Virus record (IMG/VR): IMGVR_UViG_3300028887_000002
Location: 84,278 to 148,277 of that record
Length of the DNA: 64,000 bases
Source of the DNA: a virus
Taxonomy: Duplodnaviria; Heunggongvirae; Uroviricota; Caudoviricetes
Reading direction: 5' to 3' (one strand)
In this document: piece by piece, positions 1,240 through 4,926 of the stretch
Layout of the letters: each line of letters starts with the position of its first letter
How positions within the stretch are numbered: position 1 is the stretch's first letter
The notes under the pieces: generated by a model
Told to the model about the DNA's origin: nothing
What the model saw: only the letters and a program-made list of their open reading frames with translations
Database searches by the model: none
Position numbers and translations under genes: made by a program

Positions 1240-1244
1240 ATTTG

Positions 1245-1326
1245 CGGAGAGGACAGGACTCGAACCTGCAAGTCCAGAGGACGGTGGTTTTCAAGACCAC
1301 TGCATTACCAATTATGCTACCTCTCC
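1245..1326 (-). tRNA. trnS: tRNA-Ser(TGA)
   Basis: GGAGAGG/CCTCTCC acceptor, GTGGT-CTTGAAA-ACCAC, long variable arm, G73. Confidence 0.95.
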
Positions 1327-1345
1327 AGTTAGCAAAGTAATGCTT

Positions 1346-1438
1346 TGGCGGAGAGAGGGAGGCTCGAACTCCCGCGCCAGATTTCTCTGGCCTATCGGTT
1401 TAGCAAACCGACCCCTTCACCAACTTGGGTATCTCTCC
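1346..1438 (-). tRNA. trnS: tRNA-Ser(GCT)
   Basis: GGAGAGA/TCTCTCC, TCGGT-TTGCTAA-ACCGA, long variable arm, encoded CCA. Confidence 0.95.
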
Positions 1439-1453
1439 ATTAATAAATCGTTG

Positions 1454-1524
1454 TTATCCCTGGAGGAATCGAACCTCCACGACCAGAACCAAAATCTGGT
1501 GCACTACCATTATGCAAAGGGACA
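1454..1524 (-). tRNA. trnQ: tRNA-Gln(TTG)
   Basis: TGTCCCT/AGGGATA, CCAGA-TTTTGGT-TCTGG, GGAGG-TTCGATT-CCTCC. Confidence 0.93.
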
Positions 1525-1531
1525 TTTTAAG

Positions 1532-1606
1532 CACTCTGGATGGGACTCGAACCCATAAATCTCCACCGTGAAAGGGTGGTGTCCTAACCTATTAGACGAC
1601 CAGAGC
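1532..1606 (-). tRNA. trnE: tRNA-Glu(TTC)
   Basis: GCTCTGG/CCAGAGT, CCACC-CTTTCAC-GGTGG. Confidence 0.93.
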
Positions 1607-1613
1607 AAAAAAG

Positions 1614-1700
1614 TGACAGATTTCTTCAAGTTTTTTAATTTTTTGTTCTAGCCAGTGTTTTAAAACTTGGTGCGTGGCCAGCACTTTACCAGTTCTGTCA
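1614..1700 (-). ncRNA. Candidate structured small RNA with D-loop-like motif
   Basis: Closing stem TGACAGA/TCTGTCA; GAACTGGTAAA; GTGC/GCAC and CAAGTTTT/AAAACTTG helices. Confidence 0.4.
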
Positions 1701-1753
1701 AACATTCCATAAAACAGTTCACTGCCTCAACCTCTCTTTAAACATTTACAGAA

Positions 1754-1841
1754 GACTTATCGCTTTCTTGTTCTTGCTGGGCGCCAATCCAACAAGGAAA
1801 ACTTGCTCCTATGTTCCGTGGAATAGCCTCTACCACGAGTC
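1754..1841 (-). ncRNA. Candidate multibranch small RNA
   Basis: GACT/AGTC enclosing CGTGG/CCACG and CTTGTTGG/CCAGCAAG hairpins. Confidence 0.35.
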
Positions 1842-1883
1842 AAAATTTAGATTAGAAACGTCTTAGTGACCACCGACGTTTTG

Positions 1884-1957
1884 CGGTGTGTATGGGACAC
1901 GAACCCATGACCCTCGGCGTGATAGACCGATATTCTAACCTACTGAACTAACACACC
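1884..1957 (-). tRNA. trnD: tRNA-Asp with non-canonical ATC anticodon
   Basis: GGTGTGT/ACACACC, G73, TCGGT-CTATCAC-GCCGA; T-loop TTCGTGT. Confidence 0.85.
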
Positions 1958-1964
1958 ATAATAA

Positions 1965-2113
1965 AATCCTCATCAGGACTTGAACCTGAACTTCCTTCTT
2001 GCTTGCACACAGGATTACTTTTACGGTTGCCTCACCAACCTCTCTGTACTGATGTTATCTCGGAGCGAGGGTTTACCAGTTCCCCTTCAGTTTGGATTGT
2101 TGTGTGTTCGCCA
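1965..2113 (-). ncRNA. tRNA-part-mimicking RNA (D-arm-like + T-arm, no normal anticodon arm)
   Basis: TCAGG-TTCAAGT-CCTGA T-arm; GGG-GAACTGGTAAA-CCC D-like arm; CACACA/TGTGTG and GGTTG/CAACC helices. Confidence 0.5.
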
Positions 2114-2116
2114 TTG

Positions 2117-2188
2117 TAGCCTGACCAAGAATCGAACTTGAATCTGCGGTTTAGAAAACCGTCGTTCTATCCATTGAACTATCAAGCC
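2117..2188 (-). tRNA. trnR: tRNA-Arg(TCT)
   Basis: GGCTTGA/TCAGGCT, ACGGT-TTTCTAA-ACCGC. Confidence 0.92.
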
Positions 2189-2194
2189 ATATCG

Positions 2195-2770
2195 AGAGTT
2201 TCTTTTCACTCCCAAGCCACTATCTTCTATATTTAGAAGGTCGCGAGTACGGAGACGACCATTGGTGTTTCACCGAGGGCAAGCCCGCAAACCACTCGCT
2301 TGACCGCAAGCATCTCCCGTTTTTTTACGGGGCTTCCGTCGCAGTGACTTGAACGCATAATTCCGTTTTCTACGGAAATTCATAGAAAACATTCTTTTCC
2401 TGCTTCGCCGAGCCACAACTTCTTAGGCCACTCGCGTGACGGTCGTCCATTGGAGGGTTCTCCACAGGCGTAAATTCGGGCGAACTCAGCCCTACTCACA
2501 ATATTTTTAGCCCTTCGTCCCTGATATTAAGGGTGGCGTTTGTTTTCGGTGGATTCTCTTTGTTCATCTCGGCAAGTCCATCCACCAGCAGATACCTGCA
2601 AGCCTTCCTTGTTTAGAGTCGCTACGGTTAGAGGCTGTCATATCCGTCCACGACTTGATGGTGGCTGCCACTTAACGATGTAGTGCTTTCTGTCGGCTTT
2701 CACAACCACCATTACGTGTTATTATCCGACCGCCAGCCTACGTCTACCTCACGGCAGTTGTCTGGTTTAA
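2195..2770 (-). ncRNA. Large GC-rich structured non-coding region (one or more RNAs)
   Basis: No ORF in the track; many hairpins (CCCGT/ACGGG, GCTTG/CAAGC, GGTG-AAA-CACC, GGTGGAT/ATCCACC, ATGGTGG/CCACCAT); lies between co-oriented tRNAs. Confidence 0.5.
2363..2495 (-). mobile_element. Probable remnant of a TnpB (IS605/IS607-type) 3' end / omega-RNA scaffold
   Basis: Translates to VGLSSPEFTPVENPPMDDRHASGLRSCGSAKQEKNVFYEFP*, resembling TnpB C-tails as recalled; terminal hairpin GTTTTCTATG/CGTAGAAAAC then GG. Confidence 0.55.
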
Positions 2771-2775
2771 GTTCG

Positions 2776-2857
2776 TAGCGGAGGCGGGAATCGAACCCGC
2801 GAGGCACAAGGGCACGAGATTATGAGACTCGCCAGCTACCACTACTGACACTCCGCA
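2776..2857 (-). tRNA. trnM: tRNA-Met(CAT), atypical
   Basis: T1:T72 mismatch, GCGGAG/CTCCGC, loop CTCATAA, 14-nt variable region. Confidence 0.8.
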
Positions 2858-2863
2858 ATATCG

Positions 2864-2940
2864 CCGCACCGCCTCGACTCGAACGAAGACCTCATAACGC
2901 TTTTAACGTCATTGCACTACCAGTATTATGCTACAGTGCG
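2864..2940 (-). tRNA. Atypical tRNA, anticodon AAA, 6-bp anticodon stem
   Basis: CGCACTG/CGGTGCG, GCAT/GTGC D-stem, ATGACG-TTAAAAG-CGTTAT, CTTCG-TTCGAGT-CGAGG, G73. Confidence 0.7.
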
Positions 2941-2954
2941 TTTTTTTAATCAAA

Positions 2955-3050
2955 TGGTCGGTGTTGGATTCAAACCAACTCGATGAGTTCTTAGTATCAT
3001 CTTAACCGCATTACTGGCGTACCGACTGTTCAACTATTCGGCAACCGACC
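2955..3050 (-). tRNA. Degenerate class II tRNA, Tyr(GTA)-like, possibly pseudo
   Basis: GGTCGGT/ACCGACC + A73; CGC-CAGTAAT-GCG; long variable arm GATGA/TCATC; T-loop TTTGAAT. Confidence 0.5.
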
Positions 3051-3090
3051 ATTCTCCTAAGAAAGGAGTAGCATGAAAAGTAAAATTGTG

Positions 3091-3172
3091 TGGGAGGAGG
3101 AGGACTCGAACCTCCGAAGGTGTTACCCGCCTGATTTACAGTCAGGTGCAATTGCCACTATGCGACCCTCCC
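3091..3172 (-). tRNA. trnY: tRNA-Tyr(GTA)
   Basis: GGGAGGG/TCCTCCC, CCTGA-CTGTAAA-TCAGG, long variable arm, A73. Confidence 0.95.
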
Positions 3173-3183
3173 GTTAAAAAAAA

Positions 3184-3238
3184 CAGAACCCTTTGATTTA
3201 ACCCGTGCATAGTAAATTGTTTGCTGTTATAGGGTTCC
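3184..3238 (-). ncRNA. ACAGC-motif small RNA, copy 1
   Basis: GGAACCCT-ATAACAGCAAAC...AGGGTTCT-G + U-tract. Confidence 0.65.
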
Positions 3239-3247
3239 ATGAAAAAA

Positions 3248-3326
3248 CAGAAGTCTGGTGATGTTCCTTTTGTGTTTAACTTAAAAAATGCAGAAAGTTT
3301 TAAAAGTTTTGCTGTAAATGACTTCC
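3248..3326 (-). ncRNA. ACAGC-motif small RNA, copy 2
   Basis: GGAAGTC-ATTTACAGCAAAAC...GACTTCT-G + U-tract. Confidence 0.65.
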
Positions 3327-3328
3327 AT

Positions 3329-3394
3329 CATTGGGGAACCCGCTAAGAACCGTTGTAAAAATAAATGTAACGGTGAGAACATCAGCCCTCAATG
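3329..3394 (-). ncRNA. Candidate long-hairpin RNA between copies 2 and 3
   Basis: CATTGAGG/CCCCAATG, GCTGA/TTAGC and ACCGTT/AACGGT stems. Confidence 0.4.
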
Positions 3395-3402
3395 TTTTAG
3401 AA

Positions 3403-3465
3403 CAGAAGCCTAGAATTTTGGATTAACAGTCCAGTCCTTAAAAAGGTTTTGCTGTAATGGCTTCC
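3403..3465 (-). ncRNA. ACAGC-motif small RNA, copy 3, with Asn anticodon arm
   Basis: GGAAGCC-ATTACAGCAAAAC...TGGA-CTGTTAA-TCCA...GGCTTCT-G. Confidence 0.7.
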
Positions 3466-3490
3466 TTAAATATATTTTTTTTTTCAAATC

Positions 3491-3508
3491 CAATATGTCA
3501 AAGAACTT
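3491..3508 (-). promoter_or_regulatory. boxA-like antitermination signal
   Basis: AAGTTCTTTGACATATTG in the leader of the RNA operon; compare rrn boxA GCTCTTTAACA. Confidence 0.6.
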
Positions 3509-3538
3509 TGTCAACTTTTATTTTGTGGATTGACGACA

Positions 3539-3570
3539 CAAAGGTAAATATAATTATTGAGACTACCAAA
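3539..3570 (-). promoter_or_regulatory. Bacteroidota primary-sigma promoter for the tRNA/ncRNA operon
   Basis: TTTG-N20-TACCTTTG. Confidence 0.8.
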
Positions 3571-3585
3571 AAAAATTATTTTTTT

Positions 3586-4926
3586 TTACTTGATATTTTT
3601 CTCGTATTCTACGAGTAATTTATCAAGAAATTTTTGTCCGTCAAATCCAGCCTCCAAGAAGTTAAGAAGCATTGGGTTATACCCTGACATAAAGATATTG
3701 CCGTTTCTGTCCATTTCAGGACAAGTGATGTTACGGCTATTCAAGTTCCACCAAACAATCTTGGTTATATAACCCTTTTCTTTCCAAAGTTTTTCCAGTT
3801 CATCCTTCTTATATTTGGAACCTTCGTCAAATTCCATATCAGAAAGTATGACAAGAAATTCTGGGAGTTCATCCGTATCAAGCAAGAGTTCCATGACTTT
3901 TGCGAGGTCGGTATTGGAACAATCACCAGTTATCATCGAACCGATTTCCTTGCTATAATTGGAGGTTCTGTCACCTATTGGCCTATCATCTGTATGATGG
4001 CATATGTGTTTGTGTTTTTCATTTCCCAATTCTATGATATGCGGGTAAGATGAAAAAGTGACCACGTGGTTGTTAAGGTATGTACTGCACTTACCAAGAT
4101 AGTGACCGATAGATAAAGCCTTGCCAATTGAATCGTTTCGGTCGTACATACTTCCTGATGTATCAACTATAGGCATACAACTTATTGAAATCTTTTCCAT
4201 CTGGTCAAAGACAATGTCTGCATCAATCTTGCTGGCGTTCTTATAAATGTCGTATACGGTAGCCGTTGAGACATTCATCTTGGAAGTACCTTTCTTTACG
4301 CTATCAAGGTATTCGCTATATTTTGGGTTTATATCCTTGCGTGTATTAAAACACTTAGCATATTTTAACATTGCCAGTGACGGTATATGTTCAAACTCGA
4401 TGTTTTCAACCTCGTTTCTTGACAAAGTGTTCTCAATGGTATTGCATTTTATGAACTTACCATATGTCTGTTTATTCATGCCCCACTTTTTTGCAATTTG
4501 TCTTGCAATTAAGAGGTTTTTTGATGCATAGCGTGGCATCCACTTCTTAATGAGTTCGTTTCCTTTTTCAATTTCAGACTTGAGGAACGAAAGAACTTCA
4601 TCGGTTAGTCCGAATATAGCCAAAACATCGTCTGCGCGTCCTGATTTAACAATGCCCTCAATGTTGCACTGAGCAAGTTTCATAAGTCTTCTACCAAGGT
4701 CGCGTCTTCCTAAACCATAACGCGGGTCACGAATGAACCTTGCGAAGATTTTATCCTTTTCGGTTGTACCAATAAGGTCTTCGGTTACTTCACCCAAGTG
4801 ATTCTGATAATATTCAGACAAAAACAACAAGTTTATAAGGTTATTGTTGTTTGATACTTTGGTGTATGCAATGTCACCATTTTCAGTAGTCTTCACGTTA
4901 GCAAATGCTTCCATAATGTTTGTCAT
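3586..4926 (-). CDS. DUF2828-family protein (TROVE/Ro60-like helical domain + vWA)
   Basis: TENGDIAY, RDPRYGLGRR, GRADD, KWMPR, IPSLAM; vWA MIDAS DTSGSM, LSDMEFD, WWNL, SGYNP. Confidence 0.8.
   Translation of the reverse strand: MTNIMEAFANVKTTENGDIAYTKVSNNNNLINLLFLSEYYQNHLGEVTEDLIGTTEKDKIFARFIRDPRYGLGRRDLGRRLMKLAQCNIEGIVKSGRADDVLAIFGLTDEVLSFLKSEIEKGNELIKKWMPRYASKNLLIARQIAKKWGMNKQTYGKFIKCNTIENTLSRNEVENIEFEHIPSLAMLKYAKCFNTRKDINPKYSEYLDSVKKGTSKMNVSTATVYDIYKNASKIDADIVFDQMEKISISCMPIVDTSGSMYDRNDSIGKALSIGHYLGKCSTYLNNHVVTFSSYPHIIELGNEKHKHICHHTDDRPIGDRTSNYSKEIGSMITGDCSNTDLAKVMELLLDTDELPEFLVILSDMEFDEGSKYKKDELEKLWKEKGYITKIVWWNLNSRNITCPEMDRNGNIFMSGYNPMLLNFLEAGFDGQKFLDKLLVEYEKNIK

What the first reader, a model, noticed from the sequence alone, without database searches (positions are those of the whole stretch)
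3184..4926. DUF2828 (Ro60/TROVE-like) gene with an array of three related ACAGC-motif small RNAs heading a tRNA operon: candidate undescribed ribonucleoprotein system
Seen: directly downstream of the DUF2828-vWA gene, under their own promoter, lie three 55-79 nt units on the minus strand with one grammar: 5'-GGAA-stem, then AT(A/T)1-2 and ACAGCAAA, a variable interior, then stem-TTCTG and U residues. The terminal stems differ but stay paired (GGAACCCT/AGGGTTCT, GGAAGTC/GACTTCT, GGAAGCC/GGCTTCT), which is compensatory change. Known: Ro60/Rsr (TROVE + vWA) binds adjacently encoded Y RNAs through a terminal stem while the interior acts as an effector, and is linked to RNA repair and decay. Inference: DUF2828 may be a Ro-like ring with its own cognate RNA family (fixed protein-binding handle plus swappable cargo) that protects, repairs or decoys tRNA during infection.
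Basis: partly seen in the sequence, partly recalled or inferred. Interest (0 to 1): 0.92.

Follow-up and report, generated by a model that had tools for sequence, protein, structure and literature searches.

The report
Phage Ro60-like protein with handle RNAs
A 339-kb rumen phage encodes a protein predicted to fold like the RNA-binding ring Ro60, followed by three small RNA genes that share one conserved "handle"; this pairing recurs beside the same gene in many very different phages, is in no RNA catalogue, and closely resembles the unexplained Class I RNAs of the amoeba Dictyostelium.

Summary
On the minus strand, gene 3586-4926 (Pfam DUF2828 + DUF7788) is followed by three units: 3465-3403, 3326-3248 and 3238-3184. 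Each has a 7-8 bp terminal stem, then 3-4 nt, ACAGCAA, a variable interior, the 3' arm and G-UU. tRNA-Tyr starts 11 nt later.

- **Protein:** the predicted fold is Ro60 over both domains (Z 11.5-15.4).
- **Specificity:** a covariance model built from such units finds only these three in the 339-kb genome.
- **Association:** the model found 69 of 72 hits (viral loci, partly its own training units) and 41 of 41 (independent MAG loci) on the gene's strand. A separate stem+ACAGCAA scan put the nearest unit a median 81 nt from the gene.
- **Cargo:** interiors are anticodon hairpins (unit 1 shows CUGUUAA), capped and permuted whole tRNA bodies (weak YrlA matches), or intact tRNAs.

The most likely reading is a Y-RNA-like particle, probably used in counter-defence. 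The homologue Bas63 gp130 counters the Ppl defence system.

The protein's Ro60 likeness is already annotated or published for homologues. I found no description of the RNA family. All three units match the Dictyostelium Class I RNA model below its threshold; one relative passes it.

This scan has noted the same system before on other DNA, in more than 200 genomes.

The parts
3586..4926 (-). Gene for a 446-aa Ro60-like protein: an N-terminal helical TROVE-like ring (Pfam DUF2828) and a C-terminal vWA domain (Pfam DUF7788) with DxSxS at D255, S257 and S259
   Evidence: Pfam. PHROG 850 'RNA-binding protein' at 4.8e-44. AF2 model with pLDDT 83.8. Ro60 chains at Z 11.5-15.4 with 353-383 residues aligned. 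Invariant residues.
3403..3465 (-). Handle RNA unit 1. Stem 3465-3459 pairs with 3410-3404; ACAGCAA lies at 3455-3449. The cargo is an anticodon-arm look-alike: UGGA-CUGUUAA-UCCA at 3433-3419, framed by AAGGAC and AAUUCU.
   Evidence: R1 at 48.6 bits. RF01414 at 30.4 bits. The same frame with other stems and loops occurs in 9 of 10 relatives.
3326..3402 (-). 77-nt spacer with a predicted hairpin. Together with unit 1 it forms the 139-nt cassette (3465-3327) that is missing from the 95%-identical relative L007.
   Evidence: Pairwise alignment. Fold at -16.2 kcal/mol, z -1.1 (not significant).
3248..3326 (-). Handle RNA unit 2. Stem 3326-3320 pairs with 3255-3249; ACAGCAA lies at 3315-3309. The interior is A/U-rich, with AAAAGGAACAUC before the 3' arm.
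   Evidence: R1 at 34.0 bits. RF01414 at 27.5 bits. Conserved in L007.
3184..3238 (-). Handle RNA unit 3. The 8-bp stem 3238-3231 pairs with 3192-3185; ACAGCAA lies at 3227-3221. A U8 run follows, then tRNA-Tyr.
   Evidence: R1 at 30.9 bits. RF01414 at 23.2 bits. Conserved in L007.
3466..3585 (-). Intergenic leader between the gene and unit 1, holding promoter-like strings only: TTACCTTTG at 3547-3539 and TTGACA-16-AAAAAT at 3501-3474
   Evidence: not above shuffles. The leader is conserved in L007 apart from a 6-nt change in the length of an A run.
1244..3172 (-). Downstream same-strand array of nine tRNA genes (Tyr, Phe, Met, Arg, Asp, Glu, Gln, Ser, Ser) that the units head
   Evidence: ARAGORN and Rfam. 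These nine plus the opposite-strand tRNA-Cys are all the tRNAs in the phage.

Best explanation
The gene and the three RNAs together encode a Y-RNA-like ribonucleoprotein.

The protein is a structural relative of Ro60: a helical ring followed by a vWA domain with a metal-site motif. Each small RNA closes its two ends into a 7-8 bp stem. This stem, the adjacent single-stranded ACAGCAA and the 3' G-UU tail form a constant 'handle'. The handle is the likely docking site for the protein, in the way that the Y RNA stem docks on Ro60.

The interior of each RNA is exchangeable cargo, and across the family it displays tRNA parts. These include bare anticodon arms (unit 1 shows an Asn-type loop, CUGUUAA), whole tRNA bodies that are circularly permuted with the acceptor end capped so they cannot be charged, and intact tRNAs.

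The particle most likely acts in the phage-host conflict. It would offer tRNA look-alikes to tRNA-directed host enzymes, or tether such enzymes to the ring, and so help the phage evade a defence system.

Shown here: the anatomy, the RNA-level pairing, the strict gene-RNA association and the predicted fold.
Inferred: binding of the handle by this protein.
Speculative: the decoy or tether role, and any role in counter-defence for this particular phage.
For: **Fold.** The ten best PDB matches are all Ro60/TROVE chains spanning both domains. Foldseek gives E 3.6e-8 to 1.3e-5; VIA-align gives Z 11.5-15.4 with 353-383 residues aligned. vWA-only hits reach about Z 9. Eleven of 42 family members weakly match Pfam vWA_Ro60.

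**RNA-level structure.** On 70 distinct units, 77% of stem cells pair against 61% in shuffles. There are 100 double-change cells against 43, with 0 of 500 shuffles as high. The outermost pair is G-U in 33 sequences, which only pairs on this strand.

**Association.**
- R1 hits fall on the gene's strand in 69 of 72 cases in viral loci and 41 of 41 in 31 independent MAG loci.
- In my stem+ACAGCAA scan, 60 of 70 non-redundant loci have a unit within 600 nt of the gene, at a median of 81 nt. Twenty-six of the 33 loci with no free-standing tRNA gene still have one.
- Only three units exist in the 339-kb genome, all beside the gene.
- Reverse test: of 73 database matches to a handle string, the 4 that lie in a locus with the gene all have a closing stem and lie 127-414 nt from it. 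The 66 matches without a stem have no gene in the locus.

**Cargo.**
- Weak YrlA matches of 28-45 bits occur in relatives.
- All 15 permuted cargos become ARAGORN tRNAs after in-silico rotation.
- In the unit-1 subclass, 9 of 10 instances pair fully, with 6 different stems and 6 different anticodon-type loops.

**Modularity.** A 95% relative lacks exactly unit 1 plus its spacer.

**Function lead.** Bas63 gene 130 is a 27%-identical homologue with three such units after it. It is reported as Ro60-like and as a counter of the Ppl defence (bioRxiv 10.1101/2024.10.10.617714). A canonical phage Ro60 binds adjacent Y-like RNAs and host PNPase (PMC12135203).
Against: - There is no expression, end-mapping or binding data for this phage.
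- The fold is a prediction. Sequence profiles do not reach Ro60 or Pfam TROVE.
- On their own, the three units do not fold better than shuffled sequence (z -0.4, +1.3 and -0.7). The support is comparative only.
- Ten of 70 loci show no unit within 600 nt. A few units lie kilobases from the gene or elsewhere in a genome.
- The phage has no RtcB or Rnl1 and only one distant RNA-ligase-family gene, so an RNA-repair setting is not evident here.
- The Bas63 phenotype concerns the protein gene of a distant homologue and says nothing about the RNAs.
Confidence: 0.7

Rival explanations
1. The handle is a processing signal rather than a protein dock. It would mark tRNA-like precursors for cutting and rejoining, as in the circularly permuted tRNA genes of the red alga Cyanidioschyzon (my own knowledge of Soma et al. 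2007). This would yield working tRNAs or tRNA halves, with the DUF2828 protein acting only as a chaperone or being unrelated.
For: Fifteen cargos are complete tRNA bodies split near the 5' side of the anticodon stem, and they become recognisable tRNAs once rotated. Eight units enclose an intact tRNA. The units sit in tRNA operons.
Against: In the permuted cargos read by eye (for example L047 and L031), the acceptor stem is closed by a short loop with no discriminator or CCA. About three quarters of units, including all three in this window, have no T or D arm to mature. This phage has no RtcB. The handle stays next to the protein gene even where no tRNA genes are nearby.
Confidence: 0.1
2. The units are independent small regulatory or anti-defence RNAs, such as decoys or antitoxin mimics, that need no dedicated protein. 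They sit next to DUF2828 only because both ride in the same early or tRNA operon.
For: The arrays gain and lose units between close relatives. One relative carries an abiF RNA motif above Rfam's threshold between two units, which suggests a mixed array of anti-defence RNAs. Some units lie far from the gene.
Against: The same short handle is kept next to homologues down to about 22-27% identity, in phages of Prevotella, E. coli and Mycobacterium and in MAGs. Such conservation of a 7-nt single-stranded motif plus stem position implies a common ligand. The one gene always present is the Ro60-like one.
Confidence: 0.1
3. The repeats act at the DNA level, as recombination or cassette-capture sites, like integron attC hairpins.
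For: A whole cassette (unit 1 plus spacer) is present or absent between 95% relatives, with break points at the GGAAG starts of two handles.
Against: The elements are strictly strand-specific relative to the gene. G-U pairs, which are mismatches on the other strand, are common (33 of 70 at the outer pair). The cargo consists of RNA folds (tRNA bodies). I saw no recombinase among the neighbouring ORFs.
Confidence: 0.03

Closest known systems
Ro60/Rsr with Y RNAs, especially bacterial and phage YrlA (Rfam RF02553; Chen et al. 2014, PMC4201824) and Thermus phage phiLo Ro60 with Yrl1/Yrl2 (PMC12135203)
   Same: A ring plus vWA protein with small RNA genes encoded right beside it. The RNA ends are closed by a stem, with a short conserved motif on the 5' side. 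The interior can be a tRNA mimic in the order T arm, capped acceptor, D arm. Relatives' units hit YrlA at 28-45 bits.
   Different: The protein belongs to Pfam DUF2828/DUF7788, not TROVE, and is related to Ro60 only by predicted fold. The motif is ACAGCAA, not GNCGAA. The units come in arrays of 1-5 or more, with exchangeable cargo. The tRNA-type cargos keep and display an anticodon arm. No unit reaches the YrlA threshold of 69 bits.
Dictyostelium Class I RNAs (Rfam RF01414; Kjellin et al. 2021, PMC7919456)
   Same: A 5' G, a 6-7 bp terminal stem, the motif (C)NUUACAGCAA directly after the 5' arm, a variable interior, a 3' arm followed by CUGU, a size of 42-80 nt and many copies. RF01414 ranks the window's units far above the next-best hit in the 339-kb genome (30.4, 27.5 and 23.2 bits against 13.4). 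One relative scores 41.8 bits, over the 41.5 threshold.
   Different: Class I RNAs are eukaryotic nuclear genes with a DUSE promoter, reported as unique to Dictyostelia and known to bind the RRM protein Rnp1A. The window units fall below threshold. Whether dictyostelids have a DUF2828 protein could not be tested here.
Escherichia phage Bas63 (JohannRWettstein) gp130, and mycobacteriophage LeBron gp53 'Ro-like RNA binding protein'
   Same: Both are homologous DUF2828/DUF7788 proteins. Each is followed by three handle units, one of which carries a permuted tRNA-like cargo. gp130 is reported as Ro60-like and as a counter of the Ppl defence.
   Different: They are only 22-27% identical to the window protein and come from other hosts. 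The published work treats the protein only and merely guesses at Y RNAs among the tRNA genes. The handle family is not described there.
Circularly permuted tRNA genes (Cyanidioschyzon merolae; my own knowledge)
   Same: In 15 relatives' cargos, the 3' half of a tRNA lies upstream of the 5' half.
   Different: Here the break lies at the 5' side of the anticodon stem and is occupied by the handle. The acceptor end is capped by a loop. The window's own units carry no such cargo.

Membership tests
Ro60 / TROVE protein family | Helical-repeat ring followed by a C-terminal vWA domain (Ro60 fold) | tested here: met
   This rests on a predicted model only. Ro60 chains are the top ten matches, aligned over model residues about 8-430, at Z 11.5-15.4. 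vWA-only matches reach about Z 9.
Ro60 / TROVE protein family | Sequence match to Pfam TROVE (PF05731) or to Ro60 sequences | tested here: not met
   No TROVE hit at E <= 1 for any of 42 members. The family profile finds no Ro60 chain in PDB sequences at E <= 10. The only sequence-level hint is a weak vWA_Ro60 match (PF25045) in 11 of 42 members.
Ro60 / TROVE protein family | MIDAS metal-site motif in the vWA domain | tested here: met
   D255, S257 and S259 (DxSxS) and D363 are invariant; T333 is nearly so, across 42 sequences.
Ro60 / TROVE protein family | Binds adjacent Y RNA through its terminal stem | not testable with these tools
   Only co-location and strand linkage are shown.
YrlA (Rfam RF02553) | Score at or above the gathering threshold of 69 bits | tested here: not met
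   There is no YrlA hit on the window. Relatives score 27.9-44.8 bits and LeBron 39.8 bits.
YrlA (Rfam RF02553) | tRNA-like module: T arm, capped acceptor-like stem, D arm | tested here: not met
   The three window units have no T or D arm. The module is present in 15 relatives' units.
YrlA (Rfam RF02553) | Ro-binding motif GNCGAAN0-1G on the 5' strand (Chen 2014) | tested here: not met
   The conserved motif read in all units is ACAGCAA, or CAGCAA in distant clades.
Dicty_Class_I_RNA (Rfam RF01414) | Score at or above the gathering threshold of 41.5 bits | tested here: not met
   The window units score 30.4, 27.5 and 23.2 bits. One relative, L011 4726-4798, scores 41.8 bits.
Dicty_Class_I_RNA (Rfam RF01414) | Short terminal stem starting with G, an 11-nt motif (CCUUACAGCAA; U3, C6, C9, A10 and A11 near-invariant) next to the 5' arm, and a 3' end of CUGU | tested here: met
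   Unit 1 reads C-AUUACAGCAA, which is 10 of 11 identical. All three units end in UCUGUU. All three align to the full model, positions 1-56. The defining features are taken from PMC7919456.
Dicty_Class_I_RNA (Rfam RF01414) | Dictyostelid nuclear gene with a DUSE promoter about 60 nt upstream | tested here: not met
   The source is a phage genome with direct terminal repeats, so a eukaryotic promoter context is not applicable.

The most novel reading that the evidence does not exclude
The ACAGCAA-handle RNAs and the Dictyostelium Class I RNAs are one RNA family, by descent or gene transfer, and they are read by DUF2828-type Ro60-like proteins. This protein family also occurs in fungi and in giant viruses. 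If so, the unexplained and abundant Class I RNAs would be the Y-RNA-like partners of a still unnoticed amoebal Ro60-like protein. An RNP first visible in phages would then span viruses, bacteria and eukaryotes.
Probability: 0.15. Interest if true: 0.95.

Novelty: new variant of a known kind. Interest (0 to 1): 0.8.

Why it matters
Ro60/Y-RNA particles are a classic but still poorly understood RNA-surveillance system. This work points to a second, much larger viral branch.
- **Size of the protein family:** 4358 clusters at 50% identity.
- **Reach:** relatives occur in 700 GenBank phage records, including Felix O1-like, Listeria, Staphylococcus, Campylobacter and mycobacteriophages and the Lak megaphages.

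The RNA partners of this branch have a simple, searchable signature, and their cargo openly displays tRNA anticodon arms.

That gives a concrete handle on three questions:
- how phages fight tRNA-directed defences;
- why many 'gaps', and perhaps some mis-called genes, exist in phage tRNA arrays;
- what the Ppl-countering protein Bas63 gp130 needs in order to work.

It also makes an old puzzle directly testable: what Dictyostelium Class I RNAs bind and do.

Tried and rejected
- **Rfam.** No family reaches threshold on the window. The weak DUF2693 RNA hit at 3454-3506 covers only the A/U-rich 5' part of that model, so I read it as a shared leader or promoter-like string.
- **Thermodynamics.** Single-sequence folds of the units are no better than shuffles, so I relied on comparative evidence.
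- **MAFFT alignment of units.** A second attempt (A4) scrambled the 3' arms and was dropped. R1 was built from A3 with a hand-set 7-bp stem, and variable linker length still causes some register slips.
- **Promoter claim.** Sigma-70 scan results equal the shuffles. TTACCTTTG occurs 3 times against 0.94 expected, which is only suggestive.
- **RNA-repair context.** The phage has no RtcB and no Rnl1. One RNA_ligase-family gene lies about 20 kb away.
- **Dictyostelid DUF2828.** Three protein searches and one Atlas query returned only phage, metagenome, fungal and giant-virus proteins, with no amoebal names. The question stays open. Avesson 2011, which lists the four Class I-binding proteins, is not held.
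- **Giant viruses.** Eleven GVMAG loci have no exact ACAGCAA unit and no RF01414 hit. Arrays of a variant (stem-UC-CAGCAA) follow the gene in L182 and L174.
- **Reverse pattern scan.** Sixty-six of 73 matches to GGAAGNCNTTACAGCAAA were stem-less sequences away from any DUF2828 gene.
- **Literature.** Searches for DUF2828, PF11443, DUF7788 or ACAGCAA gave nothing about RNA.
Full report
**1. What is there**

On the minus strand, an ORF at 3586-4926 encodes a 446-aa protein. It matches Pfam DUF7788 (residues 249-427, 1.2e-12), DUF2828 (7.4e-9) and PHROG 850 'RNA-binding protein' (4.8e-44).

A 120-nt leader follows, then three units:
- U1, 3465-3403: GGAAGCC-AUU-ACAGCAA ... GGCUUCU-G.
- U2, 3326-3248: GGAAGUC-AUUU-ACAGCAA ... 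GACUUCU-G.
- U3, 3238-3184: GGAACCCU-AUA-ACAGCAA ... AGGGUUCU-G.

Each unit is followed by UU. tRNA-Tyr starts 11 nt after U3 and heads a nine-gene tRNA array on the same strand.

The record is a 339-kb virus genome with direct terminal repeats. This cluster holds all ten of its tRNAs, and there is no Asn or Lys tRNA. The closest named relative of the protein is Prevotella phage Lak-A1, at 52.7% identity.

**2. The protein**

An AlphaFold2 model built from a 42-sequence alignment has pLDDT 83.8 and pTM 0.81.
- Foldseek's best PDB matches are all Ro60/TROVE: 9kop (E 3.6e-8), Xenopus Ro 1yvr, Thermus phage phiLo Ro60 9l5y and Deinococcus Rsr 2nvo.
- VIA-align gives Z 11.5-15.4 with 353-383 aligned residues across both domains. 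vWA-only structures stop at about Z 9.
- The DxSxS metal-site motif (D255, S257, S259) and D363 are invariant.

At sequence level the link to Ro60 is nearly invisible. There is no TROVE hit and no Ro60 chain in PDB sequences. Only a weak vWA_Ro60 match appears, in 11 of 42 members.

The family is large. It has 4358 clusters at 50% identity with E <= 1e-3, and 1206 with E <= 1e-30. Relatives occur in 700 GenBank phage records.

**3. The RNAs are a real, strand-specific family tied to this gene**

I built a covariance model, R1, from 26 units with a 7-bp terminal stem.

*Search results with R1:*
- In 44 sources totalling 362 kb, it finds 72 matches at E <= 1, and 69 are on the gene's strand.
- In the window, and in the whole 339-kb genome, it finds only the three units.
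- In an independent set of 31 MAG loci that played no part in the model, it finds 41 matches at E <= 0.1. All are on the gene's strand, in 24 of the 31 loci.

*Pairing in the stem:*
- 77% of stem cells pair, against 61% in shuffles.
- There are 100 double-change cells against 43, and 0 of 500 shuffles reach this.
- Slid controls score lower.
- The outer pair is G-U in 33 of 70 sequences, so the pairing works only on this strand, that is, in RNA.

*Position relative to the gene:*
- A strict motif scan gives 43 adjacent same-strand units and none on the opposite strand. Shuffles give 1.1.
- Of 70 non-redundant loci, 60 have a unit within 600 nt of the gene, at a median of 81 nt.
- Twenty-six of the 33 loci with no free-standing tRNA gene still have one. 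The link is therefore to the gene, not to tRNA arrays.

*Reverse test.* I searched the viral collection for the handle string GGAAGNCNTTACAGCAAA and found 73 matches.
- Seven have a closing stem.
- Four of those lie 127-414 nt from a DUF2828 gene on the same strand.
- A fifth lies in a genome that carries the gene elsewhere.
- None of the 66 stem-less matches has the gene in its locus.

**4. Cargo**

Among 172 distinct units:
- 44 carry a T-arm motif, and 21 of these also carry a D arm;
- 58 carry only an anticodon-loop-like hairpin;
- 70 carry nothing I could classify.

Of the 21 units with both T and D arms, 15 have the order T arm, acceptor, D arm. They hit Rfam YrlA below threshold, at 27.9-44.8 bits. 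Rotating them in silico turns all 15 into ARAGORN tRNAs: Thr, Ser, Phe, Cys and Gln. In the examples I read by eye, they are whole tRNA bodies. The acceptor end is capped by a loop, and the handle is inserted between the D arm and the anticodon stem. Eight units enclose an intact tRNA.

The window's U1 belongs to a conserved subclass: ACAGCAA-N-AAGGAC, a 4-bp stem, a 7-nt loop, the 4-bp return strand, then NAAUUCU. Nine of ten instances pair fully. They use six different stems, and the loops are CUGUUAA, CUGCUAA, CUUUUAA, CUGAUAA, UUGCUAA and CUUGUAA.

A 95% relative (L007) lacks exactly U1 and its 77-nt spacer. The break points lie at the GGAAG starts of two handles, so units come and go as cassettes.

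**5. Cultured phages and published work**

Mycobacteriophage LeBron gp53 is annotated 'Ro-like RNA binding protein'. By Pfam it is DUF2828 + DUF7788. Three handle units follow it. The middle one has AGCAGCAA and a permuted tRNA-like cargo that scores 39.8 bits against YrlA.

The Felix O1-like E. coli phages adrianh and Bas63 (JohannRWettstein) have the gene followed by three or four units inside their tRNA array.

The PhageMaP preprint reports three things about Bas63 gp130 (bioRxiv 10.1101/2024.10.10.617714):
- it is structurally like Ro60;
- its deletion cripples the phage on hosts carrying the Ppl defence, and complementation rescues it;
- some of the 'tRNA genes' next to it may be Y RNAs.

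Bas63_0130 is the homologue found here. A canonical phage Ro60, from Thermus phage phiLo, binds two adjacent Y-like RNAs with a CGAA motif and also binds host PNPase (PMC12135203). Bacterial YrlA uses the motif GNCGAA (PMC4201824).

I found no paper or Rfam family that describes the ACAGCAA handle.

**6. The Dictyostelium resemblance**

All three units align end to end with Rfam RF01414 (Dicty_Class_I_RNA), at 30.4, 27.5 and 23.2 bits against a threshold of 41.5. They share:
- the 5' G-A;
- the 6-bp stem;
- the motif UUACAGCAA;
- the 3' UCUG.

In the 339-kb genome the next-best hit to that model scores 13.4 bits. In eight related loci, 14 units hit the model. One of them, L011 4726-4798, reaches 41.8 bits, which is over the threshold.

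Kjellin et al. define Class I RNAs by exactly these features and report them as unique to Dictyostelia. They give Rnp1A as a direct binder, with three other associated proteins (PMC7919456).

DUF2828 proteins exist in fungi and in giant viruses. Arrays of a handle variant (stem-UC-CAGCAA) follow the gene in one giant-virus MAG locus and in one other distant locus. Eleven giant-virus loci lacked the exact motif.

I could not test whether dictyostelids have the protein. Common ancestry therefore remains a minority reading, which I put at about 0.15.

**7. Mechanism and verdict**

*Shown:* the anatomy, the RNA-level pairing, the strict gene-RNA linkage across distant phages, the modular tRNA-type cargo and the predicted Ro60 fold.

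*Inferred:* the handle is the docking site of this protein, by analogy with the Y RNA stem plus motif on Ro60.

*Speculative:* the particle displays uncharged tRNA look-alikes or bare anticodon arms to tRNA-directed host factors, as decoy or tether, and this serves counter-defence as in Bas63.

Against this reading:
- There is no expression or binding evidence.
- The units' fold energies are unremarkable.
- The promoter is not established.
- This phage has no RtcB-type repair genes.

I class this as a new variant of a known kind: a Ro60/Y-RNA-type particle with a different protein family, a different RNA handle and arrayed cargo.

Earlier notes of this scan describe the same system in more than 200 other genomes. 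I treated them as leads only. I re-derived the handle-gene association and the Class I match independently here, and reproduced the giant-virus claim only partly, through a handle variant.

Noticed in passing
window 2955-3050 (-): An atypical tRNA-like cloverleaf lies between tRNA-Phe and tRNA-Tyr. It has a 7-bp acceptor stem ending ACCA-like, a good T arm, an oversized D arm, a 3-bp anticodon stem with loop CAGUAAU and a long variable arm. ARAGORN does not call it, and it scores 20.6 bits against Rfam tRNA (threshold 29). Its fold z-score is -2.4.
   Followed up: partly
window 1883-1957 and 2863-2940 (-): ARAGORN assigns unusual A34 anticodons: tRNA-Asp (AUC) and tRNA-Phe (AAA). tRNA-Phe and tRNA-Met also score low for tRNAs (34.6 and 41 bits).
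   Followed up: no
window 2397-2468 (-): A weak RAGATH-18 match (23.4 bits) lies inside the 590-nt gap of the tRNA array. Other notes of this scan read it as an orphan TnpB guide-RNA remnant.
   Followed up: no
window 3454-3506 (-): The leader just upstream of unit 1 matches the first 45 positions of the DUF2693 RNA motif (21 bits). It holds two TTGACA copies and an A10 run whose length differs by 6 nt in the 95% relative. It may be a shared phage promoter or leader element.
   Followed up: partly
L015 4517-4553 (+): An abiF RNA motif (RF03085) scores 49.8 bits, above its threshold of 37. It sits between two handle units directly after the DUF2828 gene of a related phage contig, so a defence-associated RNA motif is carried in the same small-RNA array.
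   Followed up: no
L245 (Escherichia phage Bas63, MZ501086.1) about 3924-4198: Two small opposite-strand CDSs are annotated here (bas63_0137 and bas63_0138). The first overlaps a handle unit with a permuted tRNA-like cargo, so it is probably a mis-call.
   Followed up: partly
L011 6319-6524 (+): A group I intron-like match (42.6 bits, threshold 50) lies next to a tRNA-like hit, about 2 kb downstream of the DUF2828 gene in a related phage contig.
   Followed up: no
G000:C1:65783-66235 (-), about 18.5 kb before the window: This is the only RNA_ligase-family (PF09414) gene in the phage, a 476-aa ORF. The genome has no RtcB and no T4 Rnl1-type ligase.
   Followed up: no
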